IMG/VR virus record: IMGVR_UViG_3300009136_000002
Span: 11,156 to 75,155 of that record
Length of the DNA: 64,000 nt
From: a virus
Reading direction: 5' to 3' (one strand)
How positions within the stretch are numbered: the first letter of the stretch is position 1; every line of letters starts with the position of its first letter. A model generated the notes under the pieces. It saw nothing but the letters and a program-made list of their open reading frames with translations. It was not told the origin of the DNA and ran no database searches. Shown here in pieces: positions 2,814-57,400 of this stretch. Position numbers and translations under genes: made by a program.

Positions 2814-3007
2814 TTCTCCTTTCTGAATTTGTCTACCTCTGGACAGGTCGCGTGATGCGGCATATAGGATCTTGCCATCACCGCCTGACCCTCGGCGTTC
2901 ATAATGATCCTGGTTTCACTCTTGGCATCGGCAGGAATGTTCTTGCCTCTGACCGTCTTGAACCAAAGGATACTGGCTCCACAACCTTTACAAGTTGACT
3001 CACGCAT
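2810..3007 (-). CDS. Small zinc-finger protein
   Basis: CKGC...PHHATCP ligand set. Confidence 0.75.
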   Translation of the reverse strand: MRESTCKGCGASILWFKTVRGKNIPADAKSETRIIMNAEGQAVMARSYMPHHATCPEVDKFRKEK

Positions 3008-3536
3008 AATACATATTCCTCAGTCTCGGTCTTGTTGGGCTCTCTTCTATATCAGCCAAAAATCTCTTTTCATCAAACTTCCTGAATCCTCGAAACGCTG
3101 GCATTCCCACGATCACAGGCCAGGGCTGTGGCAGCATCTTTAACCCTCCTCGAACCTGGGGCTCTGAGGAGTAGTCTGCCAAGTCCTCTACTTTGGCCGT
3201 AGTAGTTGCGTACAGGCCTCCAGGCTCCAGATTACCGCAACCGCGTTGTTCGGTCTGTATGTCCTGGGGATCGTCGATGTAGTAGATTTTTCCGCGTATC
3301 TCAGGCTTGAGATCCGTGGTGAGGAGTCCATAGATTTGCTCGACAAAAAAATAGGCGAACACAACTGGATCAGGTTCGCCTTTCTCTCTAGTAACGCAGT
3401 AAATCTTGTCTCCCCAATTCATCTTTTTTAGATCGCGCTTGGGAACGCGGCGGGAGACACCCATCTTCTCGGCCTCTTGCATAAAAGACCGTGGGGAATA
3501 GTACACAGCCCCTACCCAATGAAGCCAAACAATCAT
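3000..3536 (-). CDS. Hypothetical protein, possibly PUA/EVE-like N-terminus
   Basis: 178 aa; the LKKMNWGDKIYCV...VFAYFFV pattern resembles EVE/ASCH folds (weak). Confidence 0.65.
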   Translation of the reverse strand: MIVWLHWVGAVYYSPRSFMQEAEKMGVSRRVPKRDLKKMNWGDKIYCVTREKGEPDPVVFAYFFVEQIYGLLTTDLKPEIRGKIYYIDDPQDIQTEQRGCGNLEPGGLYATTTAKVEDLADYSSEPQVRGGLKMLPQPWPVIVGMPAFRGFRKFDEKRFLADIEESPTRPRLRNMYYA

Positions 3537-3537
3537 A

Positions 3538-3807
3538 TTAACCCTCCAAGATTGCTTTCAATTTTTTCTGATCGTGATCCTTCCTGCTCCAATGCTTGAC
3601 CTTTGCTTTTATCCTCAACTGTGCTGCATCCTGGTATTTATTCAAAAGGTCGATGAATTCAGTATAATCTCCCCACCCGCGCTCTTCACCTTGCGGGGGG
3701 TTACGATAGCATGGATCACAAAGAGCATATCGTGTAGTCTCGCGCTGGCAACGCCAACACGGATGGGGAGGATAGTGTGTACGTTTAACTCGCTTTCCAG
3801 CCCCCAT
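3538..3807 (-). CDS. Zinc-finger protein directly downstream of rsr
   Basis: CWRC...LCDPC, basic. Confidence 0.65.
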   Translation of the reverse strand: MGAGKRVKRTHYPPHPCWRCQRETTRYALCDPCYRNPPQGEERGWGDYTEFIDLLNKYQDAAQLRIKAKVKHWSRKDHDQKKLKAILEG

Positions 3808-3810
3808 AGC

Positions 3811-5421
3811 CTACCTGTTTGCTATGAAGTCTCCGATTATGGCTGGGGCGGCAGTATCAAAGCCAACTACGTCCATCATCCCACCATCGGTAGGATCTGC
3901 GATGGAAAACTCGTTGCTTGCCAGCCCAACGACGACTAGCTTGGCCGGAATATCCATCTTCCGGCGGTAGTCCTCAAGCGCCTGAACCGGATGAACCTTC
4001 CCAGCCCAGGTTTCATTATCGGTGTAGATCACGAAGGCATCGGCCTCGACCTTATTCTTCAAGGCCCAAAGCATAGGCAAGGCGCAATCAGTCCCGCCAA
4101 AGGGCATCCCCTGGCAATGCTTAATCACATCGTCAAGCCTCTGATGCCTGGACATATTGATCTTGCGAAGCTCATGGGAGAAAGCCATGACCGCGCATTT
4201 CTCCTCGGTCTTGAATGTGACCATAGCCATCGCGCAAGCTCCGTCACGAGGAGTAAGGTAGGGCATCCCATTGATCCCTTCCCAATCCATAGAGCTAGAA
4301 ACGTCCAGGCCGATCACAATCCGCTTACCTGTGGGCTCAACATTTTCAAATGTCTTGTAGAATCCTGCATCCAGGGCATCCACAATATCCGGCACGGCAT
4401 CCCAATCACCCTTTCCCAGGTAGCCGCGACCTTCGCCATAGATTTTAAGCGCAGCCAGGACGTTAATCGGATGAATGCGGGCCTCTCGCAACTGATTGGG
4501 ACTAACGAGCCTGTCCCGAACCCTCTCAATTACGTCCCAATTCCCTGGAATCAAGAGGCCGACCTTACCCATGTTCCCCAGGTTCCGGATCATGGCGGTC
4601 ATAGGCATCCTCTGGAGCAAGGCCTCCCATACGTCCTTCTCAGTAAGGAAGTCAGTAGGGATTGCCTCTCGCGGCAGATTGTAAAGCTGAATGAAGTTGA
4701 CGATCTCATTCTTGTGCTTTGCTTTCTTGGCGTACTCGAATCCAGCCACGACATTCAGGGGGTGAGCCCCTCTCCATTTATCAGAGTTGGGAAGCTCAAG
4801 CTCCCCGCTCACGATCCATTTATACAGCGCATTCCTGTTTGCATCGTCGGTCTTGGGGTGAGACAGTCGGAGGAGATCCCTGTGGCTCCAGCCATCACGC
4901 TGCTGGTATTTCACGGCCTGATAAGCCAACTTCTCCACATCTTTGTCCTGATACCAATGCTTGACAGCATTGCGGAGTCCTCGACCCCACCCGCGAAAGG
5001 CCTTAACGTACTTGGCGAAATGGAACAGGTGCGTCCCGATCCGCGCTACCTTTGGCAGAGCGGCCAGGGCCATCGCTCGTGTCTCTTCATCACCCAGGCC
5101 AGCGCACATTGCCAGGACGAATAGGGCCGGATCATTCTTAGGGGCTCGTCCCTTAGTAGAAACGTCCACAACAGCACCGACAACTTTAGGGCCAGCCTTC
5201 TCGATCAAACGAGCAACGGCCTTTGCGCTGTCGATGGTTAGCTTGCGCTCTTTGATGTAGTAGGTTCCGCCTTCCGTTCCCAGCATCAGAAAGCGCATAA
5301 GCCGCTCTCCATCACCTACTGGAAACACATACCCACCCGCGCTATCCCTTATCATCTGCTTGCCAGGAATCGGCTCGGTCTGTGGGGTTTCCTTTGTCTG
5401 AAAATGCTTGGTGTAGTCCAT
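3811..5421 (-). CDS. rsr: Ro60 orthologue (Rsr), TROVE plus vWA domains
   Basis: N-terminal DSAGGYVF, LMRFLMLGTEGGTYY, GWGRGLR, KYQQRDGWSHRDLLRLSHPK, MPMTAMIRNL; vWA MIDAS DVSSSM, GGTDC and YTDNETW. Confidence 0.97.
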   Translation of the reverse strand: MDYTKHFQTKETPQTEPIPGKQMIRDSAGGYVFPVGDGERLMRFLMLGTEGGTYYIKERKLTIDSAKAVARLIEKAGPKVVGAVVDVSTKGRAPKNDPALFVLAMCAGLGDEETRAMALAALPKVARIGTHLFHFAKYVKAFRGWGRGLRNAVKHWYQDKDVEKLAYQAVKYQQRDGWSHRDLLRLSHPKTDDANRNALYKWIVSGELELPNSDKWRGAHPLNVVAGFEYAKKAKHKNEIVNFIQLYNLPREAIPTDFLTEKDVWEALLQRMPMTAMIRNLGNMGKVGLLIPGNWDVIERVRDRLVSPNQLREARIHPINVLAALKIYGEGRGYLGKGDWDAVPDIVDALDAGFYKTFENVEPTGKRIVIGLDVSSSMDWEGINGMPYLTPRDGACAMAMVTFKTEEKCAVMAFSHELRKINMSRHQRLDDVIKHCQGMPFGGTDCALPMLWALKNKVEADAFVIYTDNETWAGKVHPVQALEDYRRKMDIPAKLVVVGLASNEFSIADPTDGGMMDVVGFDTAAPAIIGDFIANR

Positions 5422-5445
5422 TTCGACCCTCCTTTCAGGGTAAGC
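5419..5445 (-). promoter_or_regulatory. Ro-binding-site-like hairpin overlapping the rsr SD and start codon
   Basis: RNA GCUUACCCU-GAAAGG-AGGGUCGAA-AUG has the same CUUACCC/GGGUCGA bulged-C helix as the Y-RNA units, and contains the SD. Confidence 0.6.
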
Positions 5446-5513
5446 GGGGCAAGGAGTGAGTAAGGGATCGTTTTCAATTAGCAGTTGAATGATAACCCTA
5501 GCTCTTCGGCCCC
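5446..5513 (-). ncRNA. Mini Y-RNA-like unit E (68 nt) with Ser(GCU) anticodon stem-loop
   Basis: GGGGCCGAAGAGCUAGGGUUAUC-A-UUCAA-CUGCUAA-UUGAA-AACG-AUCCCUUACUCACUCCUUGCCCC; the ends pair into a Ro stem. Confidence 0.8.
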
Positions 5514-5524
5514 TGGTTAAAAGT

Positions 5525-5583
5525 CGGGCAAGTAGCGAACCAGCAGCTTTTCCTGATTAGGGTAACGCTGGCTCTTCGGCCCG
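5525..5583 (-). ncRNA. Mini Y-RNA-like unit D (59 nt)
   Basis: CGGGCCGAAGAGCCAGCGUUACC...UGCUGGUUCGCUACUUGCCCG; the upper stem differs from other units but keeps pairing. Confidence 0.8.
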
Positions 5584-5594
5584 TATAAAACTGA

Positions 5595-5703
5595 GTGGGC
5601 GAGTAGCGTCAAGGGATTGACCCCACCCTCGCGGGTGGCAGACCCTTTGTTGCTTAGGGGGTCTGTTAGGACTCGAACCTGATAACCCTTAACTTCGGCC
5701 CAC
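5595..5703 (-). ncRNA. YrlA-like Y RNA, unit C (109 nt)
   Basis: Ro stem GUGGGCCGAAGUUAAGGGUUAUC / AUCCCUUGACGCUACUCGCCCAC encloses a T-loop hairpin AGG-UUCGAGU-CCU, a closed stem CAGACCC/GGGUCUG and a hairpin CCACCC-GCGA-GGGUGG. Confidence 0.8.
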
Positions 5704-5715
5704 GCATTTTCGAGT

Positions 5716-5845
5716 TGGGGAGAGTGGTGGGACTCGAACCCACGGCCTCGCCATTTGCATTGGATAACCCTTAGCCATCGACCCGCAAGCGGGTAAGGAG
5801 CGGAAAGGGAATTTTCGCGCTCTAACCGACTGAGCTACACTCTCC
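5716..5845 (-). ncRNA. tRNA/Y-RNA chimera, unit B (130 nt): full cloverleaf, GCA anticodon, G-1:C73, encoded CCA, 52-nt Ro hairpin inserted between nt 28 and 29
   Basis: Acceptor GAGAGUG/CACUCUC, D arm GCUC-AGUCGGUUA-GAGC, anticodon arm CG[insert]CCA-AUGCAAA-UGGCG, variable loop AGGCC, T arm GUGGG-UUCGAGU-CCCAC. The insert (5764-5815) contains CCUUACCCGC-UU-GCGGGUCGAUGGCUAAGGGUUAU. Confidence 0.85.
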
Positions 5846-5850
5846 ATAGT

Positions 5851-5917
5851 TGGGCTAGGAATCATAGGACGGATTGGGGCAGGCGCGGCCTGCAGATAAC
5901 CATCCTACTTCGGCCCA
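5851..5917 (-). ncRNA. Mini Y-RNA-like unit A (67 nt)
   Basis: Begins immediately after the recT stop: UGGGCCGAAGUAGGAUGGUUAUC-U-GCAGGC-CGC-GCCUGC...CCGUCCUAUGAUUCCUAGCCCA. Confidence 0.8.
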
Positions 5918-7297
5918 TTACTCTTGTTCTTGTGATACTCCAAAGGTTGTGAATTCCGTGTCAGGATCGGTAGCAAAGCAATGTGAGAAATAGCCTGTGT
6001 ACCGTCCCATATACATTCGCTTAGTTAAAATGGCCCAATCGTGCCATGCTTTGAGCTGTATCCCAGCACCCTTGACAAACTTATCAATCTCCAGGGTGCG
6101 CTCGATGCTTGCCAACTGACCATCTAGTTCTTCCGGCGTTGCTTCTTCCGGCTCTTGCCCTGCGCCAAAGAGCGGCGGCTGTGCTGGTGGTTCAACTGGC
6201 GGCTCAACTGGCGGCTCAACTGGCGGCTCAACTGGCGGCTGCGGCGGTGGATCGACCATACTGAGCGGGCCTGTTGGTTCCGGCGATGCGAATGAAGGCC
6301 TCGGCCACGGTGTTCCCCAAAAGCGTTTGTGCTTGTCGTCCAATTCCTTGAGAACAGGGCTATCCGGCGGTAATAGGCCCAGCCGGACGATGTTCTCTTC
6401 TTTTGCGAGGAACGTGGTGAAGCCACTCGTTCTCAACCCGAAAAATTCTGCTATAAATTTTTCATCATCGGTTTCCGGTACAACTGGCGCTGGCGGTGGG
6501 GGCGGCACTATTGTATCAGCCAGCTTGTCCAGCCCTGTCTTTCCTGGTTCCTCGATAATCTCGCCTGTTTGTAAGTCAACGCCACTAATTACATCTAGTT
6601 GCTGATCTATCCCTGCCTCCGCTCTTTCGTCGAGACTCACGGCCAGGGACAGGGAATTGTCCACGACTGAGGACGGTAGGTACTTGACGCTGTGCCTAAT
6701 TGCTGTCTTTAAGGCCATTGCATCAAAGTCTGTTACCCAGGGGCCGGATCTTCCCGCTGGTGAGCGTTGCTGAACCGCCTTGATGTGGCTCATTGGGAGA
6801 ACCCTGAATTGAAACCCACCTTCCTTGTAAAATGCGATACAGTAAGCTGCTACCTGATCTCCGCGATCATGCTCCTCGTATGCTGGCTTGTGATGAATGT
6901 GGGGGTTAGATCCATGCTCGTAACTGAAACTATCTTTGGCATAGACTATGTGAGCCTCGATGTTCCGAAACTTGCCGGATCTCATAGCCAAGTCGATCAG
7001 ACCCATATACCCTGGGATAAACGTGACCTTCTTGGCAAAGGGAACCAAATGCGCCATATTTCTGACTCCATCCGGCTCCAGCCCCAACTGAGCGCACGTT
7101 AAGACCGCAGACAGTAAGCTCTGAGGCGTACAGTCCAGTAGCCCAGGCGTTAGCTGCACGGAGGTCATAACGATCCGGCTGAACCTGTCCACTCCGATCT
7201 GTTTTGGTAATGCAGCCGTGAGGGATTTTGAATGCTGATGGAGGAGCTGCTTTACCGATTGGATCTTGGTCTGTTGTGTCGTAAGTTGTCCGGTCAT
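5918..7297 (-). CDS. recT: RecT-family single-strand annealing protein with long Pro-rich C-terminal extension
   Basis: LLDCTPQSLLSAVLTCAQLGLEP, FIPGYMGLIDLAMRSG, SGPWVTDFDAMALKTAIR...KYLP. Start MTGQ at 7297 overlaps the yqaJ stop. Confidence 0.93.
   Translation of the reverse strand: MTGQLTTQQTKIQSVKQLLHQHSKSLTAALPKQIGVDRFSRIVMTSVQLTPGLLDCTPQSLLSAVLTCAQLGLEPDGVRNMAHLVPFAKKVTFIPGYMGLIDLAMRSGKFRNIEAHIVYAKDSFSYEHGSNPHIHHKPAYEEHDRGDQVAAYCIAFYKEGGFQFRVLPMSHIKAVQQRSPAGRSGPWVTDFDAMALKTAIRHSVKYLPSSVVDNSLSLAVSLDERAEAGIDQQLDVISGVDLQTGEIIEEPGKTGLDKLADTIVPPPPPAPVVPETDDEKFIAEFFGLRTSGFTTFLAKEENIVRLGLLPPDSPVLKELDDKHKRFWGTPWPRPSFASPEPTGPLSMVDPPPQPPVEPPVEPPVEPPVEPPAQPPLFGAGQEPEEATPEELDGQLASIERTLEIDKFVKGAGIQLKAWHDWAILTKRMYMGRYTGYFSHCFATDPDTEFTTFGVSQEQE
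6192..6239 (-). repeat. Four tandem 12-bp repeats encoding PPVE in RecT
   Basis: (TCAACTGGCGGC)x4 on the + strand. Confidence 0.9.
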
Positions 7298-8181
7298 GCC
7301 TTTCTCCTTAATGTTCTGACAGTTGCGGCATCTACCCAATATGCCTCTCTCTCATGGGCTACCCAGCTATACGTTACTCCGTTTGACAACACGCCGTAGC
7401 TTGCCAACTCTAGCTTGGACTTGATCTTGTTCTCCAGGGCTGTCTTTTCCTTTCTGAGCTGCTTTTCCTTCGCTTTGATCTCTTGTAAGTCCTCATCCCA
7501 CCAAAGAGCCTCCCCAGGTAGCGGAATGGATTCTCCGCTATCTTTGGGGTACTGGAAATGAAGGGCTTCTTTTGATGAATCTGAGTCGTCTACCGGAGGA
7601 GGATCTTGATTCTGAATTCGCTGCCAAAACTTGCCCTCTTCCTCGATAAGAATTTCCACAAAGCGGTCATTGCGTTGAACATCAACGATAAGATCGCTGT
7701 AGTCACCGAAGAATACAGCCAATGATCCCCACTCACTCCCTGTGACCGCCATTTCATGTTGGATCTGAACCTGATAATAAAGCGGTGGCTCCTCAAGCCA
7801 ATTACTCTTCATTCCAGGCCCACCAGTTTTGATCTGCAAGACCCCCTGGCCTCGATCATCAAAGGGCTCGATCAGGCGGTCTATGGTTGCCATCATAAAT
7901 TCATGCTCTGGATGCTGGTATATCGTAAAGTTGTCCGGCTTTATCGTGTCCCTACCAGTTTCCCTCTCGTAGTAGGCTGCAACTGCATCTTCGAGATCCA
8001 GACCCCATTGCATTCGCTGGTTCATTTCCTGCTCTGGCATCATCTTCAACTTGCGAAGATACAGCGATAGAGGGGATACCCAGGGGGAGATCCCCAAGAC
8101 CGCCGCAGCCTCAGACCCGCCGATCCCACCCATCCGAGCCTCAAGCCATTCGTCACGATTTTTATGAGATTTCCATTTCAT
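7294..8181 (-). CDS. YqaJ/lambda-exonuclease-like recombination nuclease
   Basis: WLEAR..GIGGSEAAAVLG.SPW, G..LE, ATIDR, LQIKT (EIK variant), YYQVQIQHEM.VTG. Confidence 0.92.
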   Translation of the reverse strand: MKWKSHKNRDEWLEARMGGIGGSEAAAVLGISPWVSPLSLYLRKLKMMPEQEMNQRMQWGLDLEDAVAAYYERETGRDTIKPDNFTIYQHPEHEFMMATIDRLIEPFDDRGQGVLQIKTGGPGMKSNWLEEPPLYYQVQIQHEMAVTGSEWGSLAVFFGDYSDLIVDVQRNDRFVEILIEEEGKFWQRIQNQDPPPVDDSDSSKEALHFQYPKDSGESIPLPGEALWWDEDLQEIKAKEKQLRKEKTALENKIKSKLELASYGVLSNGVTYSWVAHEREAYWVDAATVRTLRRKA

Positions 8182-20857: not shown

Positions 20858-21312
20858 TGGGCGTAACTAACCCGAATTACCCGACGATGGAGATCGCCCT
20901 GGCGATGGTTAATGCGCCGGATAACGCCGATGGCACAGAGCGCATGAAAAAAGGCGATATTATTGCCATTCGCAAACCAGCAGATTTCATAGGATCGCAA
21001 GAAGGCAAAATCTTTCTCTGGCTACATATTGATGGGCCAGAAGAAAATGAATTTGCTGCCTTTGCTCAACAGGTCTTTGAACCTACTGATCCTGAAACTG
21101 GCGAAAGATTCGACAAGCGAAGATACGAAGTTCCCCTCGGACGCTTACAGGTTCTATATCCCGCGTTTAATCAATCAAGAGCAACAGATCCAAATGATTT
21201 TTATCAACCATTCTTGCTCATTGACAGCGAAGATTTTGAAATTGTTGCTGCAGATCCACCATACGCAGTTAGCGGCCTAGTCTTTGATAAGGCCATAGGA
21301 GATTATCTCTAA
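20857..21312 (+). CDS. Hypothetical protein coupled to the giant Ser-rich gene
   Basis: 151 aa, TAATG overlaps at both ends. Confidence 0.75.
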   Translation: MGVTNPNYPTMEIALAMVNAPDNADGTERMKKGDIIAIRKPADFIGSQEGKIFLWLHIDGPEENEFAAFAQQVFEPTDPETGERFDKRRYEVPLGRLQVLYPAFNQSRATDPNDFYQPFLLIDSEDFEIVAADPPYAVSGLVFDKAIGDYL

Positions 21313-24300
21313 TGGCTACCTCAAGACGAGCTGCCACAAATGAGAATATCAGTACCTACGATAGCGGGGGTGGACAGGACTACTCAGCCCTTGCTACCTG
21401 GGAAGCTGCAACTGATATTGATCTCGTTACCGCTACTCAGTCTGAGGTCTTAGAGTGCTACGCTGGCTCTCACGATGATGAAGTTGTCATTGATGGCGCG
21501 ACTACGAATACTTCGTATTTCAGGATAATCCGTCCGGCCTCTGGAGAGGGTCACGATGGCTACCCCCACCAGGACGGATCAGCCGCTTATTTTGTCACTA
21601 CAACAAGCAACATAGATATGTTCTCTGTGGTTGAGGCTAACTGCCAACTTCAAGACTTGATAATGAGCCTCGATCAAGATGGTGGTAGTGCCTATTGCGC
21701 TGCCCTAGTAGGTAACAATCAGTATTTAATCGGCTGTCTAGCCATCAATCCGGTCAACATTGGCGGTGATTCTAAGGGTTTTAGAGAGAATGGCGGCAGC
21801 GGCGATACGATGTATTACATCAACAGTATCGCCATAGGCTGTGACGATGCTGCCTTTCAGTTCGATGCAGGAACAAGCTACGTCTATAACTGCCATGCCA
21901 TTGATTCAGGTGAAGGATTCAATGAGAGTGGCGGTACGGTAATCTGTAAAAACTGCCTGGGTAATGGCACTACCGGATCGCAGGACTTTGATGGCTCTTA
22001 TGATGCTGCGAGTGAATATAACTCATCAGGCGATGGCTCGGCCCCAGGTACAAACAGCCGGATCAATCAAACCTTTGCTTTCTCCGATGCTGGCAATGAT
22101 GATTTCCGGTTAGGCTACACCGATGGTGGCGCTAGGAATTTTGGTACTGATCTGAGCGCAGATGGCAATTTCGCTTTCGACGATGATATTGCTGATGGCG
22201 TTATGGGCGCGGGCAAAGCAGGAATAACACGCCCACAAGAATCAGTATGGGATATAGGCTTTCACGAGCGCACGGAAAGCTCTTCCAGCTCAAGTTCTTC
22301 ATCCTGCTCTAGTAGTTTTTCATCCAGTTCCTTCTCATCTTGCTCATCCAGTTTTTCTAGCTCAAGCTCATGCTCCTCGTCGTCCTTTTCTTCGTCCTCT
22401 TCCAGTTTCTCATCGTCCTGCAGTAGTTCATCGAGCAGTTTTTCATCTTCATCTAGCTGTTCTAGTTCGTCTTTTTCGAGTTCGAGTTCGAGTTCGTCAA
22501 GCAGCTTTTCCTCTAGTTCAAGTTCCTGTTCTAGCTCGTTTTCTTCAAGCTCTTCCTGTTCATCAAGCAGCTTTTCGTCCTCTTGTTCGTCGAGTTCTTC
22601 ATTTTCTAGCTCATCCTCTTCTTCACCTTCATGCGTTCCACCGGATTGGCGCTGGGTTGATGGTTCTCAGCTAATTGTCGGCACGATAAATACTGGCGTT
22701 TTCTGTGATACCCATGCCTGTGATCTTACTGAGTATGTAATCAATGAGCTTTCAGGTGTGGGTATTCCAGCTTTCGATCAAAGATTCACCTTTGAAAATG
22801 TACCAAAATCAACCCTTGATGTATCCATAACTGGCTACTACAGCGGCAATCCCGCTCATATCGTCAAAATAGCGATCTTTAATTACCAAACGCTCTTGTG
22901 GGATGATATGACAGGCGCAGCCCAGGACTTTCCATCACAGGCTACGCCTTCTAACTATGTATTTCCGCTCACAGGCGCGGGAACACCGTCTGATTATGTG
23001 AGTGTTGGCAATCAGCTATCAATTAAGATCGACCATCGCTCTAACGGATCAGCCGGACACACATTCCACATGGATTGTGTGCATCTGACCGATACCAGCT
23101 CTTCTAGCTCAAGTTCGTCAAGCTGCTCATCTTCCTTCTCCAGCTCATCGAGTTCATTTAGCTCTTCTTGCTCGTCAAGTTGCAGTTCGTCATTTTCATC
23201 TTCGTCAAGCTGCTCGTCCTCTTGTTCTTCAAGTTTTTCAAGTTCTAGCAGCTCTTTTTCATCGTCCTGTTCGTCGTCGAGTTTTAGCAGCTCATCGAGC
23301 TGCAGTAGCTCGTTTTCGTCCTCGTCGTCGAGCTGCAGTAGCTCATCTTTTTCGAGTTCATCATGCTCAAGCAGCTTTTCCAGTTCGAGTTCGTGCAGCT
23401 CGTCATTTTCGTCGTCCTCGTCCTCATCCTTCTCCAGCAGTTCGAGCTGTTCTTCGAGTTTTTCTTCTTCTAGCTCATGCTCGTCGAGCTTTTCATCAAG
23501 CTCATCATGCTCGTCGTCGAGCTTTTCATCTAGTTGTTCGTCCTGTTCTTCGAGCTTTTCATCATGCTCTAGCTCTTCTTCATCTTCATTAGAATGTGGA
23601 CAATGGATTGCTTACTTTGACGATTCAAGGTGGAACCCTGGGGGCATTGTTGCCCCACCATTTGCCTGTACCTGGGATTCAGTAAATTGGGAATGGGATT
23701 CTGATCTATATAGCTCACAGCAATGGGCCTATTTAGAAACACAAGGCGCATGGCGGAGTGGATACAGGCCAAGCAAGTTTCGGATTACATTCACAGGCGG
23801 CTCTCCACTATATGCCTGTAATCTGAAAGATACTGCCGGAAATGTCATTGGCGGTACGAATTTCCCGACCAATTATTTCTCCGGTCAAGTTGAAGCAATT
23901 ACTTTTTCGACATTCGATCTTAGATTTTTGGAATTACAGCATAACGGCACAACTCAATTCCAAGTTACAAATATCGAATTCTTTACGGTATGTTCCTCTT
24001 CTAGCTCTTCGTCGAGTTCATTTAGCTCTTGTTCTTCATCATTTAGCTCTTCAAGTTCGAGTTTTTCATCATCGTCGTCTTGTTCATCGAGCTTTTCAAG
24101 TAGTAGCAGCTCATTTTCATCGAGTTCATCATGCTCATCGAGCTTTTCGAGTTCATCATCTTCGTTTTCGTCCTCGTCCTCTTCATTCTCATCGTCGAGT
24201 TCCAGCTACTCAAGTTCCTCATCCTCTTCTTTATCGTCCTCCTCTTCCTCTTCGTTTTCGAGCAGTTGCTCTTCATCCTGTTCGAGTTTTTCGAGTTCTA

Positions 24301-27300
24301 GCTTTTCATCATCGTCGTCCAGCTCCTCTTTTAGCTCAAGTAGCTCTTTTTCCAGTAGTTCTTCATCATCCAGCTCTTGTTCTTCCTCAAGCTCTTCTTT
24401 TAGCTCTTCTTGCTCAAGTAGCTCTTTTTCTTCATCTTCTAGCTCATCGAGCTTTAGTAGCTCGTCGTCCTGTTCGTCGTCGTCCTTTTCGAGTTCAAGC
24501 TCTTCGAGTTTTTCGTCAAGCAGTAGCTCACGGAGTTCGTCATGCTCATCGAGCTGTTCAAGCTCTTTTTCATCGTCCTCGTTCTCGTCCTCGTCCTCGT
24601 GTTCATCAAGCAGCCCATCATCCAGCTCTTCCTCCTTCTCGTCGTCTTGCTCATCGTCCTCTTTCTCTTCGAGTAGCTTCTCGTCGTCCTCTTCGAGCTT
24701 TTCTTCTTCTTCCTGTAGCTCCTCGTTCTCATCGAGTTCGTCATGCAGCTCAAGCTCATTTTCTTCTTCTTCGAGCTGTAGTTCGTCGTCTTTTAGCTCG
24801 TCAAGTTCGGTTTCATCTAGCTCGTCATTTTCTTCTTCATCTTCTTGCTCCAGTAGCTCATTTTCGTCGTCAAGTTCATCATTTAGCTCGTCGAGTTCCT
24901 TTTCATCTTCCTGTTCATCTTCGTCGTCATTTTCCAGCTCAAGCTCTTCGAGTTTCAGCTCTTCGAGTTCGAGCTTTAGCTCTTCAAGCTCAAGTTTTTC
25001 AAGCTCTTGCTCCTCAAGCTCCTTCTCGTCCAGTAGTAGCTGTTCTTCGTCGTTTTCATCCAGTTCTAGCTGTTCTTCGTCATTCTCGTCCAGTTGTAGC
25101 TCTTCGTTCTCTTTTTCAAGCTCCTCTTCGAGTAGTTCGTTTTCAAGCTCTTCATCCTGCTCAAGCTCCTCGTTTTCGAGTTCTAGCTCCTGCAGTAGCT
25201 CCTCTTTCTCGTCGTCCAGCTCATCCTTTTCAAGCTCTTCATCAGAGAGCCTATCGTCGTCCTGCTCGTCCAGTAGCTCTCTCTCTGGCTCGGTTTCATC
25301 TTCGTGTTCGTCCTCTTCGTCCAGCCAATCTAGCTCAAGCTCAGTTTCATCTTCCTCTTCATGCTGTAGCTCCGTATCCTCTTCAAGCTCCTCTTTCTCG
25401 TCCTCATCCAGCTCCTTCTCGTCCTCAAGCTCGGTAAGTTCTTCGAGTTCGTGTGACTCGGCCTTCTCGTCCAGCTCATGCTCATCTAGCTGCAGTAGCT
25501 CATCGGAAAGCAGCTCTTGTCTGTCGTCCTCTTGCTCGTCGTCCTCTAGTTGCAGCTCTTCCTCATCGGCTGACTGTGACTCTATACCTGTCTATGGGAA
25601 CAATGTCTTAGCTGTGTATCCTGATTGGATTTGGTACGACTTTGGTAGGGTAAAGGTCAATGAGGACAGCATTGAGCAAGTACACACGGATGCTAGAAGG
25701 TATGCTGGATTTGAATCACGCAAATTCGTTGCTGAATTCAGGGCTGGGGATCAAGATCCGCAAGGCATCGAACAGCGATTTCCGATAGGGAATCCGGCCT
25801 CTCTAGGCGTAACGAGAGTCTATCAACTCTCATTTTGGATCTATCCAGTTGATCGGACTAAGATCAGAGTAACCATCAAGCATGATGATGGGACTTTGAA
25901 TGTTCATAACTATCCTGGTCTTACTCCGAATACCTGGAATCTGGTAAGCGATCTGGTCAACATTCAGAATAACACCAATACCGTGATCGCGTGGCACTCC
26001 GGCGCTACGGAATCCGGTACTTGGTATCTCGATGAGTTGGCATTGCGCTGGCTGGTCTGCCCTGGATCTTCATCGTCCTCGGAATCATCCTGTTCGAGTT
26101 CGTCTTGCTCCTCTTCCAGCGAATCCTCATCCTCACTCAGCTCCTCATCCTCTTGTAGTAGCTGTAGCTCGTGTGATTCGCTCTTCTCGTCCTCTAGCTC
26201 ATCGTCGTCGTTCTCCAGCTCATCGTCGTCCTGTAGCTCTTCAAGTACCTGTTCCTCTTCATCTTTCTCCAGTTGCAGCTCCTCTTTCTCGTCCTGCAGC
26301 TCTTCGTTCTCTTCGTCGTCGTCGTCATTTAGCTCATCTTCGAGCTGCAGCTCTAGCTGTTCGTCCAGTTTCTCATCTTCGAGTTCATCTTTTAGCTCTA
26401 GCTCTTCATCTTTCAGTAGTTCTTGCTCCTCAAGCTCATCCAGTTTGAGCTTTAGCTCAAGTTGCTCGTCCTGTGATTCTGGCTTTTCTTCAAGCTCTTC
26501 TAGCTCTTCATTCTCAAGCTCGTCGAGCTGTTCATCGTCTTTTAGCAGTTGCTCCTCTTCCTACTCGTTCTCCAGTTCGAGTTCTTCATCCTGTGATTCA
26601 GCTTTCTCTTCCAGCTCTTCGTGTAGTAGCTCATCTTCATCGTCCAGCGAGAGTTTCCAGGTCTTACAGGGACAATACTTCTATCCTCAGAGCGATGAGG
26701 GTGGATATACGGTTACTCCTGTGGGATCTGGCTCTAGCATCGCAGATCGAGTGAATAATGGCATCTTCGGGCCTGGATTCTCACCTGGGCCGGATGATAC
26801 TAACGGATTCCAGGGCAGTAACGGTGCTTACGTTAGACTTAGACTTTCAAATCCAGTTTTCCAGGGAGAAGCGATAGAAGTTAGATGTACTGTAAGGGCG
26901 TTTACTTTCTTTGCTCCACCTGGACGAGTTGATGTAAGATTCGAGTCTAGCTTTGGTGTGTCACATGGCACACGCACAATATACACGATTACTACAGGTG
27001 TTCCGGCTGATTACACGGTAAGCTGGAGTCTTAATAAGACAGCCGCAGAGCTTACAGATGCACGGTTGAGGGTTGAGTGCCAAGATCCAAGCTGGAATGA
27101 TCGAGTTACTGAGCTTGAATTACAGGTCATTATTGAAGGCTCATCTTCCAGTTCATGCTCTTCGAGTTCATCTTGTGATTCGGCATTCTCATCCTCCAGC
27201 TCTTCATCTTCGCTGAGTTCGGTGTCGGTAAGCAGTTGCTCATCTTCCTGTGATTCAGCTTTCTCATCGTCAAGCTCGTCGTCCTCACAAAGCTCTGTAT

Positions 27301-30300
27301 CTATCTCATCTTCTTCATCCAGTTACTCTAGCTCTTGCAGTTCCTCTAGCTCTTGCGATTCGGCATTCTCATCTTCATCTAGCAGCTCATCGTTCTCCAG
27401 CTCTTCATCCTCGTTCTCAAGCTCGTCGTCCTGTAGCTCGTCGTCGAGCTGCAGTTCTTGTGATTCAGCCTTCTCCTCTAGTTGCTCGTCGTCGTCATTC
27501 AGCTCGTCGAGTTCCAGCTCCTCTAGCTGTTCATCGAGCTTTAGCTCTTGCTCTTCATCGTCCTGCAGTAGCTCGTTCTCTTCATCTTCGTGTTCGAGCT
27601 GTGATTCAGCCTTCTCAAGCTCATGTTCGAGTTCAAGCTCCTCGTTCTCATCGAGCTGTTCATCGAGCTTTAGCAGTTCTAGCCCATCATTATCGTTCTC
27701 ATCCTGTAGCTCTTGCAGCTCATGTGATTCGGCTTTCTCATCGTCCAGCTCGTCGAGCTTTTCATCTTCGTCCAGCTCCTTCTCCTCCTCGTGTTCTAGC
27801 TCTTTTAGCTCAAGCTCATCTTCAAGCTGTTCATCGTCAAGTTTTTCATCGAGTTCTTGTAGCTCGTCATTTTCGTCAAGCTCAAGCTGCTCATCGTCAA
27901 GCAGCTCTTTTTCCTCGTCGAGTTCGTCTTTCTCAAGCTCGTCGTCGAGCTTTAGTTCAAGCTGTAGCAGCTCTTTCAGCTCTTCGAGTTCTTCATTCTC
28001 GTCGAGTTCAAGCTCTTTCAGCTCAAGCTGTAGCAGTAGCTCTTTCTCATCGTCGTCGTCCTTCTCAAGCAGCTCATCGTCGTTCTCGTCGAGTTCGAGT
28101 TCGTCGAGCTTTAGCTCCAGTAGCAGTTTCTCATCGTCCAGCTCTTCGTTCTCGTCAAGCTCCTCGTGTTCAAGCTCTTCGTTCTCAAGTAGCTGTTCCT
28201 CTTCAAGCTCGTCCTTCTCGTCGTCGAGTAGCTGTTCGAGTTCCTTCTCGTCGTCCTCAAGCTCTTTCTCAAGCTCAAGCTCAAATTGCTCATCTTCGAG
28301 CTGTTCATCTTCATTCAGCTCGTCGTCTTTCAGCTCGTCGTCATCGCGCTCTTCCAGCTCAAGCTCATTCTCTTCGAGTTCTTCCTCTTTCAGTAGCTCG
28401 TCAAGCTGTTCGAGTTCTTTCAGCTCTTGCAGCTCCTCGTTCTCTTCGAGTTCTGAGAGTTTTAGCAGCTCTTCTTCCTCGCAGAGTTCAAGCTCATCTT
28501 GCTCTGCCGGACAATGGATCTCCCAATTCGGTGCGCCATCTACCTTTGGCTGTGGTTTAGGTTTTGGTACAACCAAATGGTCAACAACTGGCGGCAATAC
28601 TAGGCACGTTAATAGTTCACCTGATTACTTCGATGCTTGTGGCCCTGGCGGTTTTGGGCTGGCTGCTACTGGCGCATGGAAAACTGGCTACAGACCAACA
28701 AAAATCAGGGTCACGATTACAGGTGGTACTCTCTCTTGGACGCTATCAGACGGTAGTGGAGTGATTGCCTCTGCCAGTAATCAGATAGGTTCGCCAGCGG
28801 CAGAAGTTAATATCGGCGGTCAAGTTAGCGATATTGTTAGTTTCGGGCCAGCCGATGAGTTTACTGGATGGCACATAGAGGATATTGAATTCTTCGTCTG
28901 CTCAAGCTCAAGCAGCTCTTTCTCATCCTGTTCCTCTAGCGAATCGTCGAGTTCAAGCTCTTCATCCTTCTCTTCAAGCTCTAGCTCATTTTCGTCCAGT
29001 TCGAGTTCTTTCAGCAGCTCATCCTCATGCTCATCTTCCAGCGAATCATCTTCATCGTCGCCAGTTCCGTTCTTTACAGGCATAAATCCAGACGAAGATG
29101 TTGATATTACTGGCTGGACGCTTTCAGGTCAGGCTACAGCTTGGGAATGTACGGAGGATTTTAGTGCTGGAGATCCGGCGAGGAATGATGATTATGTCTA
29201 TGCTTTAGCAGCCAATACCATAAAGCTCGGTTTTGAGAATCCTTCGTATGCTGGCAATTCCTATTATGTGAGAGTGAAATTTAGTGCGGCCTCCGGCGGG
29301 TCACAGGGTAGCCTGGGAATGTCGCTCTATGACGGTGCTAGTCAAATAGGCAGCGAACAGATATTTGCTCCGCAGTTGCTACCTGGGACTTGGAGTGAAT
29401 TTGAATACAGTTTCGCAACGACTAAGACCGCTGCAGAGCTGAGTGATATGCGAGTATGGTTCCGGTGGATTAGTGGACTCTCGATCCTTGTCAGCTCGGT
29501 ACAGATAGACATTTCCCTGGCATCTTCTTCTTCGTCCTCATTGTCGGAAAGCTCAAGCTCAGAGTCGGTAAGCTCATGCTCAAGTTCACACTCATTAAGC
29601 TCCAGTTCGTCGTGTGAATCTGGAGCATGGGTAGATGTTTTCACTCCTGAGTGGGTTTGCTCCGCTAACTGCTCATATAATGCTACCTTGGATCAGTTTG
29701 AGGAAGCTGGCCCTGGTATGAGCATACGGGAAAGCGGTACTTGGAATGTGGGTTATCGCCCGATTAAAATCAGGGCTTACGGTCATACTCCTGGCGGTTG
29801 GGGCGAGTTGAATCTGAGAGATAATGTTGGCGGTGGAAACGTCATTGCGAATGATGATGGCGGTGGTAGTGGCTATGTCGCTGGTACTCCGGTTGATATT
29901 GATTGGTCATACGGCATTGATATGGCTAGGATTGATTCACCGTGGGATACCCTAACCAATGTCCAATTCTTCATTTGTGGTTCGAGTTCAAGTAGCTCAT
30001 TCTCATCCTGTAGCTCTAGCTTTAGCAGTTCCAGCTCTTCGTTCTCCAGTTCCAGCTCTAGCTCTTCATTCTCATCTTCCAGCTCTTCGTTCTCAAGCTC
30101 ATCTTCCTTCTCGTCTAGCTCATCTTTCTCATCAAGCAGCTCTTCATTCAGTTCCTCTTCGAGTGAAAGTCAGATTTTACAAAGCCAATTCATCCGGCCT
30201 GATGAAGATGTGAGTGCCAGCAACATTACTTTTGGCTCCGGTAGTTCTAGGTGGGATCGACTGAATGATGGAATTATTACCGGAACGCCTGACGACACAA

Positions 30301-54429: not shown

Positions 54430-57400
54430 ATGGCGAGACTAACATTCAGGGAAATAAAGCCGCTCAAATTCAAGGAGCTACCGCCCGAAACAGGTGCGGT
54501 AGATGATCTTGGAGTTGCAGACTTGCCTGGACTCGATTTTGCTCCGGCTGCTCCGGCTGCTCCCCCCCCTCAACCGTCATTCGGAGCAACGGCTGTCCAG
54601 AGAGCTGGTAGGCTGGATGAAATATCTCCCCCTGTTCAACCACCTACACCTATGTCATTCGGAGCAACGGCCATTCAGAGAGCTGCAAGAATAGATGAGC
54701 TAACGAGGGCTGAGGAGCAACCCGCCGCGAGACAAAAGGGTCGTGGCTACCTGGGGCCACTAAAGCGTCCTGATGGTCGTATCTCTACTGAGCTATCTAT
54801 TGGTGTCAATATGGATGGCGAGGAGACTGAGATCCCCACACTCGTCCCTGGATTAACCCAGGAAGAAATAGATCTACTCCTCAATATCAACGAAGGAGAA
54901 GCAAAAAAGATTCCTCAGTCGATTATAGATAAAGCAATCGACCACGCACGGAAAAGAAAGTCTGCCGGAAAGAATTTCTTCGCTCAAAGGGAAGATTTTA
55001 AACCCCCTGACATTGAAGAACTCATGGGCGTTAAGCCGAACTTCGATGTCACCCGTACCCTTTCAGACATTCCAGCCATGCCTGATATTTATGACGAGCC
55101 CGAAGGCTTGGCTGATCTAGCTCATACCGTTCAAGGCGTGGGTCAATTCGGAGCGACATTTGGAAAGGACGTTCTTAAAGAGTTTAAAGATGTAGGCAAC
55201 CTTAGCGGAGCTGCAGTTAATCAAGGGTTGGCACATTTCTCGCGCAACATGGATTCCATTGTTGAAATGTTCACGCAAGCCTACAACATGATTGTGGAAC
55301 CAATGGGCCTAGATCCCATAGAGAGGAATGAAGTATTCAAAACCGCTGCAGAGACTTACGAAAAGGGTGCGAAATGGTGGAAAGATAGAGTCAAAGATCC
55401 GTCCCTTCTTGCAGAAATACAGGGAACTTTACTCGGTGGCTCGATCCCTGCCATTGGTGAATTCATACTTGATGTACCCTACTTCATTCTCCTGGGACTG
55501 TCTAAGGGCGGTGTGAAAGAAGGCCTCAAGATGGGCCTTGAGCGTTTCATCTTAGGCCAGATTTTGCACGGCGCAGGATTTCTAACAATGGGGCCAAGAG
55601 TCGCCGCAACGGGTAGCATTGGCGCTCTCCAGGCTGCTGCTGCTGGTGGAACGAAAGAAGATATAGTTAAGGGCGCAGCGGTCATGGGCGCTCTCGGCGC
55701 AACTATGGGGCCAGGGCGTGTCGGCCTAAGAGAGGCATTGAGGGAAGTACCTTTCGGAGTGATGGAGGATGCCACAGCACTACACGATTTCGTTTACGAG
55801 AGAGTCCGTCCCATCATAGAAAACACAACAGAACTAGGGCGTGTAGACGCAGACGCAATATCGGAATGGTATTCCACCAAGCTGTCTCGGCTGGACGCTA
55901 TCCTAAGAGATCCCAATGGCCGACCTGTAGGAGAGTTGCGGGCTGCAGCCGATAATTTTAAGGCAATAACCGGAACACAACACCCGCTCGATCCCGATCT
56001 AACCGGACACGATCCGCTTAGGCAGATCCCCGAAGAAGCGGGAAGATTTCCGCAACAGCCACGCATTTTCTCTAAGCCATTTAAGTTTATGGAAGTTGGT
56101 CAGACCACGCCTGTAGAGCCAGCGCCAGAAGGCGCACCGCCTCCTGGCGAAGGCTTTGTCATGGTCGAGCCGGAGCCTACCCCACTACCCAAAGTAGGTG
56201 AGCGGCCTACCGAAGTTTCACAGCCAGAAAGTCCTGTTGTGGCTAAGGCGGGTGAACCCTTTAAGACTGAGCGTGGCGCTGAGGCAAATATACCCAAGGC
56301 TCGAAAGGGTTATCCACCGATCAAGGATTGGGAAGTTGTTCCAGTTGAGGGTGGTTTTGGTTTACTGCCGCGCCATGCCGTACCGTGGAAAATGACCGTT
56401 GAGGAGTACACAGAAAGATTTTATCTCCAGGGCAGACGCTTTGAAGATATAGCTGATGAAGAGTTTGAAGGCATCCTCAATGAGAGTCCAGGGATGAGCG
56501 ATTTCTTTGATCCCAAGACCACTAACTACAAGCTGGCAGTACGTCGATACCTTGATGATCGAATCGAGCTGCAACGAGAATTTGGTGGGATACTCCGCAA
56601 GGAACACCCTTTCGAGAAGAGGAAAGATGGTACGCCAAGAATGCAAACCATCACGATGAAGCACTACAGAGAGGTAGCCAAGGCGATCAAGGCTGGTCTG
56701 CCTGTTCCGCCCGAAGTCACAGATCCCTATCCAGCCTTGCAGGGCAAGCTCGTTCCCGAAGGTGTAATTGCGCCTGATGCTGAGGAGCTAGACGTAGGTG
56801 AAATAGCTGAAATCATCCCTGGATTACTTGCAGATGGTAACGCAACAGCACTAGGCGACATTATCGACCTACCCCCACGCTATCCGGAGCCGATCATAGT
56901 AGATCCAACTACCATCCGTACCGGATCTATGAATATCGCCAACTCTTTACTCGTGCAGGACTTTTATGAAGATGCCGGATTTGTAAAAGAAAAAGAGGAT
57001 ATGAATGCAGTTGGAGATATTGATATTACATATAAATGGCCTACTGAGCCAGAGGCAGCACCATTCCCATTCAAGGCGGGTGACACCGTGCAAACGCCTA
57101 GTGGTGAAGGCAAAATCCTTAGTGTTGGTGAGGAGAAAGCTAGGGTTGAACTCATTGACGGAACGACGGAGGCTGTTACGCTTGAGGATATATCCACGCC
57201 TATTGCACGAGAGGAGCCCAAATTCGCCGCTGAGGAGCCCGAACTTGAAATAGAGCCCGTGGCTCCTGTCGATGAAGAAGCTCCTGTAGAGGAAGCTCCT
57301 TTGGCTGCTCCCGTTGGGTTTGACAGCAAGGGTAAAGCTCTTAGGCCTGGGGATGCTGTCAGGATGGAGGGAAGGTATCCTGGTGAGCGCCTGGAGGTTG

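What the first reader, a model, noticed from the sequence alone, without database searches (positions are those of the whole stretch)
5419..5917. Tandem array of five Y-RNA-like units with constant Ro stems and variable payloads, directly upstream of a phage Ro60/Rsr
Seen: the ~500 nt between the recT stop and the rsr start are tiled by five units (5851-5917, 5716-5845, 5595-5703, 5525-5583, 5446-5513) separated by 5-12 nt spacers. All share GGG(C/U)CGA(A/U)G...GUUA(U/C)C on one strand and CU(U/C/A)RCCC on the other, forming a helix with a bulged C. The upper stems differ in sequence but keep pairing (UAGGAUGG/CCGUCCUA, AGCCAGCG/UGCUGGUU, AAGGG/CCCUU). Each carries a different module: GC hairpin, whole tRNA, T-arm plus two hairpins, small hairpin, or anticodon stem-loop. 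Known: this bulged helix is the Ro60-binding element of Y RNAs, and bacterial and phage Rsr loci usually carry a small number of Y RNAs that tether Ro to partners. Inference: the phage processes one transcript into a set of Ro RNPs, each showing a different RNA module, as a modular decoy or tether system, possibly against host RNA-targeting defences. No RtcB is present in the window.
Basis: partly seen in the sequence, partly recalled or inferred. Interest (0 to 1): 0.93.

Follow-up and report, generated by a model that had tools for sequence, protein, structure and literature searches.

The report
Phage Ro60 gene with five Y RNAs
The 500 bases in front of this phage's Ro60 gene really do encode five small RNAs that share the Ro60-binding handle, one built into a complete tRNA look-alike and one carrying an anticodon-loop mimic; this kind of system is known, but those two designs seem not to have been described.

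Summary
Observation confirmed. The non-coding stretch 5422-5917 (minus strand), between recT and a TROVE+vWA Ro60 gene, holds five units. All carry the published bacterial Y-RNA marks (GNCGAA(N)G, bulged C, YUAY).

A covariance model built from the small units finds units 1, 3, 4 and 5 and nothing else significant in the 75-kb phage genome. It gave 232 further matches beside Ro60 genes in about 180 phage and MAG loci (some re-fetched), every one on the Ro60 strand, with strong covariation. Arrays are common: 63 phage loci hold 1-6 units, and five is the upper tail.

- Unit 2 is not a handle enclosing a tRNA. It is a tRNA-order molecule (open 7-bp acceptor stem, encoded CCA, D and T arms, GCA anticodon-like loop) with the Ro handle, closed by a tetraloop, inserted in the 5' strand of the anticodon stem. 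My scan found 106 such candidates.
- Small units often end in anticodon-loop mimics. Unit 5's loop is CUGCUAA.

This is a Ro60/Y-RNA locus of the known kind (YrlA/YrlB; phage phiLo Yrl1/2) with new structural variants. Processing, Ro60 binding and any decoy role are inferred, not shown. This scan has already noted arrays beside a different Ro60-like family on other DNA.

The parts
3811..5421 (-). rsr: phage Ro60 orthologue (536 aa), TROVE ring plus vWA domain
   Evidence: Pfam PF05731 at 2.7e-41 and PF25045 at 1.6e-67. The closest relative is 76% identical (L003). 364 cultured phages carry homologues below 60% identity.
5419..5444 (-). Leader hairpin CUUACCC-UGAAAGGA-GGGUCGAA-AUG. It is a minimal, loop-closed copy of the Ro handle that encloses the rsr Shine-Dalgarno sequence and abuts the start codon. 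Candidate autoregulatory site (inferred).
   Evidence: Sequence; fold. Similar ACUUGCCC-loop-GGGCCGAAAGGA hairpins lie directly before rsr in L079, L126, L133, L154, L177 and L053, but in only 12 of 169 loci by a loose pattern.
5446..5513 (-). Unit 5: small Y RNA. The handle is GGGGC[C]GAAG / CUUGCCCC. The payload is an anticodon-arm mimic (stem 5485-5489 with 5473-5477; loop CUGCUAA at 5478-5484, 'anticodon' GCU).
   Evidence: R1 55.2 bits, E 1.7e-11; fold z -2.65. The orthologue L003:2585-2652 keeps the loop and swaps two stem pairs.
5525..5583 (-). Unit 4: small Y RNA with a 9-bp upper stem (GAGCCAGCG/UGCUGGUUC) and a short apical hairpin
   Evidence: R1 63.1 bits, E 1.8e-13; fold
5595..5703 (-). 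Unit 3: Y RNA in the canonical order. The payload is a T-loop hairpin (AGG-UUCGAGU-CCU), a 7-bp hairpin with a 13-nt loop, and CCACCC-GCGA-GGGUGG. There is no D arm.
   Evidence: R1 32.9 bits, E 7e-6; fold z -3.1. The orthologue L003:2798-2903 shows compensatory changes in all three hairpins.
5716..5844 (-). Unit 2: tRNA-order Y RNA.
- Open 7-bp acceptor stem, discriminator C, encoded CCA (5716-5718), D arm and T arm.
- Anticodon-like hairpin at 5751-5763 (loop AUGCAAA).
- Ro handle hairpin at about 5768-5809, closed by G(CUUG)C, inserted in the 5' strand of the anticodon stem.
   Evidence: Rfam tRNA 46.9 bits with a 65-nt insert. ARAGORN finds nothing. Family alignment A8 of 35 sequences: 88.9% of cells paired against 37-50% with slid partners. 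The long-range pairs 29-113 and 30-112 covary. The homologous fold is -30.1 kcal/mol, against an MFE of -45.3 for a different fold.
5851..5917 (-). Unit 1: small Y RNA with upper stem UAGGAUGG/CCGUCCUA and a GC-rich apical hairpin. It starts one base after the recT stop codon.
   Evidence: R1 38.1 bits, E 3.6e-7; fold z -5.2. There is no orthologue in the sibling locus L003.
5918..7339 (-). recT, the upstream gene on the same strand. No terminator-like or promoter-like site lies between it and the array.
   Evidence: Pfam RecT 8.3e-43; promoter/terminator scan

Best explanation
The region is a polycistronic array of five Y-RNA genes that serve the Ro60 (Rsr) protein encoded just downstream.

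Shown:
- Each unit carries the Ro60-binding handle: a short G-C base stem, a bulged C, the GNCGAA(N)G strand, a variable upper stem and GUUAYC.
- Each unit carries a different second module.
- Unit 2 is a complete tRNA look-alike with an open acceptor stem, an encoded CCA end and an anticodon-like loop. Its handle is inserted in the anticodon stem.
- Unit 3 carries a T-loop hairpin.
- Unit 5 carries an anticodon-arm mimic.
- Units 1 and 4 carry plain hairpins.

Inferred from the M. smegmatis and phage phiLo precedents:
- The array is transcribed with rsr, probably reading through from recT.
- It is cut into separate RNAs; RNase P would cut at the 5' end of unit 2.
- Each RNA loads onto Ro60.
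- The variable modules then tether Ro60 to, or compete for, proteins that recognise tRNA parts. Candidates are tRNA-modifying or tRNA-cleaving enzymes and exoribonucleases such as PNPase.
- A sixth, minimal handle over the rsr ribosome-binding site may let Ro60 limit its own synthesis.
For: - Pfam identifies the Ro60 gene.
- The published YrlA/YrlB motifs, GNCGAAN0-1G and YUAY (PMC4201824), are present in all five units.
- Model R1 finds four units and nothing else significant in the 75-kb genome.
- R1 gives 37, 98 and 97 matches in phage and MAG Ro60 loci. All are on the Ro60 strand and nearly all lie within about 1 kb of the gene.
- Covariation of the handle: 93% of cells paired against 39-50% with slid partners, score 0.73 against at most 0.16, and 14 of 16 pairs with double changes.
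- Family structure of unit 2 on an unfitted alignment: 88.9% paired against 37-50% slid, and 27 of 35 pairs with double changes.
- My scan found 106 distinct long tRNA-like candidates, all on the Ro60 strand.
- Anticodon-loop signature: 19 of 36 small-unit 7-nt hairpins, against a 6.9% background and a shuffle mean of 0.74. It replicates at 15 of 25 in MAG loci and at 48 of 58 in tRNA-order units.
- The sibling phage L003 keeps units 2-5 with compensatory changes.
[quoted passage not shown] Phage phiLo Ro60 binds two upstream Yrl RNAs.
Against: - There are no expression, processing or binding data.
- No promoter-like or terminator-like site flanks the array, so discrete RNAs are assumed.
- No Rfam Y_RNA or YrlA match was found at E up to 10.
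- Unit 2's motif is GUCGAUG, one step off the published pattern, and its handle is loop-closed. No studied Y RNA has that.
- The proposed unit 2 fold is 15 kcal/mol above the MFE.
- Alignments A5 and A7 were fitted to the model, which inflates pairing counts.
Confidence: 0.85

Rival explanations
1. The region is only a structured 5' leader of the rsr mRNA. Repeated Ro60 binding sites would serve autoregulation or mRNA stability, and no stable trans-acting small RNAs would be released.
For: No promoter or terminator signals lie around the array, and unit 1 abuts the recT stop codon. A handle-like hairpin sits directly on the rsr ribosome-binding site.
Against: - Unit 2 has all the marks of an RNase P / CCA-end substrate.
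- In M. smegmatis the equivalent upstream RNAs are processed and bound by Rsr.
- In some loci the units lie downstream of rsr (L084, L098, L085), which a leader cannot explain.
- Diverse payloads under selection are not needed for an operator.
Confidence: 0.07
2. Unit 2 is a working tRNA gene interrupted by an intervening sequence, and the other units are decayed remnants of a phage tRNA array.
For: Unit 2 scores 46.9 bits on the Rfam tRNA model. It has an anticodon-like loop (AUGCAAA) at the exact tRNA distance from the T stem. Many Ro60 loci lie inside tRNA arrays.
Against: - The insert is the conserved, covarying Ro handle rather than an intron, and it sits in the stem, not the loop.
- No group I intron or other intron family was hit.
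- 'Anticodons' such as GCU occur without the long variable arm of tRNA-Ser.
- The small units match one structured model specific to Ro60 loci.
Confidence: 0.04
3. The similarity among the five units is chance or a generic repeat (REP-like element) unrelated to Ro60.
For: The short motif GGGYCGAWG alone is only weakly significant (6 hits observed, 2.2 expected).
Against: All 232 model matches in other loci lie on the Ro60 strand beside the gene. Covariation is strong. The rest of the genome has no significant match.
Confidence: 0.01

Closest known systems
Bacterial YrlA / YrlB Y RNAs with Rsr (S. Typhimurium, M. smegmatis, mycobacteriophages; Chen et al. 2014, PMC4201824; Wang et al. 2018, bioRxiv 10.1101/312249)
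   Same: - Encoded beside rsr on its strand.
- GNCGAAN0-1G and YUAY motifs.
- tRNA-like T arm (unit 3) and T, D and acceptor arms (unit 2).
- Several Y RNAs cut from one precursor upstream of rsr.
- M. smegmatis YrlA ends up with an RNase P-cut acceptor stem and a CCA end.
   Different: - Published YrlA runs handle-5', T arm, closed acceptor loop, D arm, handle-3' ('circularly permuted tRNA').
- Unit 2 runs in true tRNA order, with an open acceptor stem, an encoded CCA and a loop-closed handle inside the anticodon stem.
- No unit matches Rfam YrlA (RF02553).
- Both strands of the handle are conserved here, as in animal Y RNAs. Only the 5' strand is recognisable in the Salmonella and M. smegmatis RNAs.
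- The locus has five units, against two in those species.
Thermus phage phiLo Ro60 with Yrl1 and Yrl2 (NAR 2025, PMC12135203)
   Same: A phage Ro60 gene with Y-like RNAs directly upstream, found by their CGAA motif. Binding to the phage Ro60 and to host PNPase was shown in vitro.
   Different: phiLo has two plain stem-bulge-stem RNAs, with no tRNA-like or anticodon-like modules described. Nothing has been tested for the present phage.
Animal Y RNAs and nematode stem-bulge RNAs (Rfam RF00019, RF01656)
   Same: The handle consensus GG(G/U)CCGAAG ... GGUUAUC ... ACUUG(C/A)CC with a bulged C is nearly the animal one. The nematode sbRNA model hits phage BearBQ Y units at 29 bits.
   Different: Neither model reports a hit in this window at E up to 10. 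Animal Y RNAs have no tRNA-like modules and have longer lower stems.
D. radiodurans Yrn1
   Same: A Y RNA with a T arm and an 'anticodon arm' of 5 bp (PMC4201824).
   Different: In Yrn1 the Ro stem takes the place of the acceptor stem and the loop has 6 nt. Here the acceptor stem is free and the loops have 7 nt, with U at position 2 and a purine at position 6.

Membership tests
Y RNA (Ro60-bound non-coding RNA) | Encoded next to a Ro60/Rsr orthologue on the same strand | tested here: met
   The array lies 0-500 nt upstream of a TROVE+vWA_Ro60 gene on the minus strand.
Y RNA (Ro60-bound non-coding RNA) | Conserved Ro-binding strand GNCGAAN0-1G (bacteria) / GGUCCGA (animals) with a bulged C in a helix | tested here: met
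   Units 1, 3, 4 and 5 have GCCGAAG. Unit 2 has GUCGAUG, one deviation. The helix and bulge are supported by covariation in 88 distinct homologues.
Y RNA (Ro60-bound non-coding RNA) | The 5' and 3' ends of the RNA pair to form the Ro-binding stem | tested here: inconclusive
   The sequence fits this for units 1, 3, 4 and 5. In unit 2 the stem is closed by a tetraloop and the ends form an acceptor stem. True RNA ends are unknown.
Y RNA (Ro60-bound non-coding RNA) | Physically bound by Ro60 as a discrete stable RNA | not testable with these tools
   This needs RNA sequencing, pull-down or EMSA.
YrlA (Rfam RF02553) | Match to the curated covariance model | tested here: not met
   RF02553 gives no match at E up to 10 in 5300-6050. 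The test is weak: a canonical YrlA of Gordonia phage BearBQ reaches only 26.7 bits, against a cut-off of 69.
YrlA (Rfam RF02553) | tRNA-like domain in the order T arm, closed acceptor-like stem-loop, D arm, enclosed by the Ro stem | tested here: not met
   Unit 3 has a T-loop hairpin and a 7-bp hairpin but no D arm. Unit 2 has D and T arms in tRNA order with an open acceptor stem.
tRNA (Rfam RF00005) | Cloverleaf with acceptor, D, anticodon and T arms of standard size | tested here: inconclusive
   Unit 2 scores 46.9 bits against a cut-off of 29, but with 65 nt in place of the 13-nt centre of the anticodon arm. ARAGORN rejects it. A 3-bp/7-nt anticodon-like hairpin plus two long-range pairs can complete the arm.
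tRNA (Rfam RF00005) | Aminoacylation and use in decoding | not testable with these tools
   No identity set can be assigned from the sequence: the discriminator is C and the loop reads GCA.

The most novel reading that the evidence does not exclude
Phage and bacterial Ro60 loci encode a changeable panel of tRNA and anticodon-arm baits mounted on a common Ro60 handle. Across loci the anticodon-like triplets include GCU, GCA, CAU, GAU, UUU, CUU and GUU. Each bait would capture, inhibit or report on a particular tRNA-directed enzyme, such as a host anticodon nuclease, and units are swapped between close relatives as the targets change. The tRNA-order units, with their free CCA ends, might even be charged or enter tRNA pathways while carrying Ro60.
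Probability: 0.2. Interest if true: 0.85.

Novelty: new variant of a known kind. Interest (0 to 1): 0.62.

Why it matters
What Ro60 and its Y RNAs do in bacteria and phages is still largely open. The field knows one tRNA-mimic design (YrlA) and a few plain hairpins.

This locus and its roughly 180 relatives show that the same handle is combined with at least three tRNA-derived modules:
- a full tRNA in native order with a CCA end,
- T-arm hairpins,
- anticodon-arm mimics with many different 'anticodons'.

Close relatives also differ in which units they carry. That points to tRNA-recognising proteins as the partners. It also makes the published guess that Y RNAs compete with anticodon nucleases directly testable with defined RNAs.

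The tRNA-order form is also a plausible intermediate between tRNA and the permuted YrlA.

Tried and rejected
- Megablast of the locus against cultured phages found no match. The terminase is at most 36% identical to any cultured phage, so the host is unknown.
- The Rfam E-value scan of the region found only tRNA, with no Y_RNA or YrlA. ARAGORN found no tRNA in the whole genome.
- My first loose descriptor scan gave many false hits and was dropped in favour of the covariance model.
- RNAalifold on the MAFFT alignment of small units recovered only the base stem, because the upper-stem 3' strands were out of register. I supplied the structure by hand.
- Single-sequence folding of unit 2 does not give the family fold.
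- I tested whether canonical YrlA and tRNA-order units exclude each other. They occur in 5 and 15 of 63 loci with no overlap, but the numbers are too small to mean anything.
- A 7-mer complement test for the upper stem inside tRNA-order units was only weakly discriminating: 39% perfect against 12% in shuffles.
- I looked for conserved protein partners downstream of rsr. Only the sibling locus L003 shares the neighbours, and they match no Pfam or PHROG family.
- There is no RtcB in the genome.
- The promoter and terminator scan was at chance level.
- The supplementary tables of Chen 2014 and the 2020 Annual Review were not available. I therefore cannot exclude that multi-unit phage arrays or tRNA-order forms are listed there.
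Full report
**Check of the observation**

On the minus strand the window encodes a YqaJ exonuclease (7294-8181), RecT (5918-7339) and a 536-aa Ro60 orthologue with TROVE and vWA_Ro60 domains (3811-5421). The 496 nt between recT and rsr hold no ORF of 60 aa or more on either strand.

GGGYCGAWG occurs five times there on the minus strand and only once elsewhere in 64 kb. Each copy is followed 8-9 nt later by GUUAYC. Each unit folds better than its shuffles (z -2.1 to -5.2).

**These are the published Y-RNA marks**

Chen et al. 2014 (PMC4201824) define bacterial YrlA/YrlB by a GNCGAAN0-1G motif near the 5' end, thought to be the Rsr contact, and a conserved YUAY. Units 1, 3, 4 and 5 read GCCGAAG ... 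GUUAUC or GUUACC. Unit 2 reads GUCGAUG ... GUUAUC.

The 3' strand, (A)CUUGCCC, pairs with the 5' strand so that the second C bulges, as in animal Y RNAs. In unit 2 the C-G pair next to the bulge is changed to U-A on both sides.

**Comparative test**

I built covariance model R1 from 11 small units of the window and four related loci.

- With filters off over the whole 75-kb phage genome, it scores units 4, 5, 1 and 3 at 63, 55, 38 and 33 bits. The next best match is the 5' half of unit 2 at 13 bits, and everything else is noise.
- In 25 other phage loci it gave 33 matches, in 79 further IMG/VR loci 98, and in 80 MAG or genome loci 97. A few IMG/VR loci were fetched twice under two ids.
- Every match lies on the Ro60 strand, nearly always within about 1 kb upstream and sometimes just downstream.
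- On the 88 distinct IMG/VR matches, 93% of cells pair, against 39-50% when partners are slid. The covariation score is 0.73 against at most 0.16, and 14 of 16 pairs show double changes. That alignment was fitted to the model, which inflates pairing. The strand and position bias does not depend on it.

**Arrays are common**

Across 63 non-redundant phage loci, the numbers of loci with 1, 2, 3, 4, 5 and 6 units are 18, 26, 9, 5, 4 and 1. The window's five units are in the upper tail but are not unique.

The sibling phage L003 (Ro60 76% identical; same yqaJ-recT-array-rsr-orf89-orf178 order) has four units. It lacks unit 1 and carries the unit-5-like RNA first. Unit content therefore changes between close relatives.

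Orthologous units differ by compensatory changes. Examples are the acceptor stem G-C to C-G, the T stem U-A to C-G, the upper stem C-G to G-C and the base stem A-U to G-C in unit 2, and two swapped pairs in the anticodon-like stem of unit 5.

**Unit 2 has a different architecture from the one first read**

Rfam's tRNA model matches 5719-5844 end to end at 46.9 bits, with 65 nt where the centre of the anticodon arm should be. The RNA has:

- a 7-bp acceptor stem (GAGAGUG/CACUCUC), discriminator C and an encoded CCA (5716-5718);
- a normal D arm and a normal T arm;
- a handle that lies inside, 3' strand first, closed by a G(CUUG)C tetraloop (GCAA in L003).

Exactly 10 nt before the T stem, the tRNA distance, lies a 7-nt loop AUGCAAA closed by CCA/UGG. 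Two further pairs (C28-G96, G29-C95 of the unit) join the nucleotides after the D arm to those before the variable loop.

The Ro handle is therefore an insertion in the 5' strand of an otherwise complete anticodon stem.

A simple scan for tRNA-like ends around long inserts found 106 distinct candidates in the phage and MAG loci, all on the Ro60 strand. On an unfitted MAFFT alignment of 35 of them:

- the full structure is 88.9% paired, against 37-50% with slid partners;
- 27 of 35 pairs show double changes;
- the two long-range pairs covary (pair 30-112: GC 10, CG 9, UA 6, UG 4, AU 2), and the handle's base stem is 92% paired.

Three cautions apply. The acceptor and T stems were required by my scan. 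The D stem was largely required too (at least 3 of its 4 pairs). The single-sequence MFE of unit 2 is a different fold, 15 kcal/mol lower.

**How this compares with the literature**

Published YrlA RNAs are described as resembling circularly permuted tRNAs with a closed acceptor loop. Only M. smegmatis YrlA is opened by RNase P and given CCA. I found no description of the tRNA-order form in the papers I could read.

**Anticodon-loop mimicry**

Unit 5's payload is a 5-bp stem with the loop CUGCUAA.

| Set | Units examined | With the 7-nt hairpin scored | With anticodon-loop pattern |
|---|---|---|---|
| Small units in phage loci | 95 | 36 (stem of at least 4 bp) | 19 (pyrimidine-U-NNN-purine) |
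| Small units in the independent MAG set | 66 | 25 (stem of at least 4 bp) | 15 (pyrimidine-U-NNN-purine) |
| tRNA-order candidates, at the tRNA-defined position | 106 | 58 (stem of at least 3 bp) | 48 (U33 and R37) |

The background for this pattern is 6.9% of hairpins in the same DNA. Shuffled payloads give a mean of 0.74 and a maximum of 4.

The triplets vary and include GCU, GCA, CAU, GAU, UUU, CUU, GUU, GAA and UGG. Chen et al. called the corresponding hairpin of YrlA 'V', after the variable arm, and did not note this pattern.

**Other features**

- Directly over the rsr Shine-Dalgarno sequence and start codon lies CUUACCC-UGAAAGGA-GGGUCGAA-AUG (5419-5444). This is a minimal loop-closed copy of the handle. 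Similar hairpins precede rsr in several other loci but are not general.
- The genome has no RtcB and no tRNA genes.
- No promoter-like or terminator-like site flanks the array, so transcription with the recT-rsr operon is the simplest reading.

**Mechanism and limits**

That these are Ro60-partner RNAs is well supported. That they are processed into separate RNPs rests on precedent: M. smegmatis YrlA and YrlB come from one precursor, and phage phiLo Ro60 binds two upstream Yrl RNAs and host PNPase.

The tRNA-derived modules point to tRNA-recognising proteins as partners. Hughes et al. 2020 already proposed that YrlA's tRNA-like domain could competitively inhibit an anticodon nuclease. The diversity and turnover of anticodon mimics fit that idea, but nothing here tests it.

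**Verdict**

This is a real Ro60/Y-RNA locus of a known kind. It contains structural variants, the tRNA-order Y RNA and the anticodon-arm mimics, that are widespread in public data and, as far as I could check, undescribed. Earlier reports of this scan described arrays of partner RNAs beside a different, Felix O1-type Ro60-like family on other DNA.

Noticed in passing
window 21312-31826 (+), window 54430-63834 (+), L187 241-9432 (+): This 75-kb podovirus-like genome (P22-type portal, SU10 adaptor) has three giant ORFs of 3504, 3134 and 3063 aa. The two ORFs in the window match no Pfam family. The third was only listed. Together they take up about 40% of the genome.
   Followed up: partly
L003 2585-2973 compared with window 5446-5917: In the sibling phage the unit order differs. 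The GCU anticodon-mimic unit is first in L003 and last in the window, and unit 1 has no counterpart. Units are therefore gained, lost or moved between close relatives.
   Followed up: partly
L022 2248-2468 (Gordonia phage BearBQ): The Rfam model of nematode stem-bulge RNAs (RF01656, Y-RNA homologues) matches both phage Y units at about 29 bits. That is better than the bacterial YrlA model RF02553 (26.7 bits, cut-off 69). The phage handle is closer to the animal consensus than to the curated bacterial family.
   Followed up: no
L004 1310-1425: A wcaG RNA (RF01761, 56 bits, above its cut-off) lies between Y units upstream of a phage Ro60 gene in a 296-kb viral contig.
   Followed up: no
L021 137-2550, L015 30-1940, and the MAG loci L107-L186: Many Ro60 genes sit beside or inside tRNA gene arrays. 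L021 has 18 tRNAs upstream on the Ro60 strand and L015 has 16 on the opposite strand. In 80 MAG loci my scan found 231 ordinary-length tRNA-like hits on the Ro60 strand and 1 on the other strand.
   Followed up: partly
window 3000-3807 (-): Two small genes directly after rsr (89 and 178 aa) match no Pfam or PHROG family. They are conserved only in the sibling locus L003 (60-68% identity).
   Followed up: partly
window 3991-5124 (+): A 377-aa ORF runs antisense inside rsr. It was not examined further.
   Followed up: no
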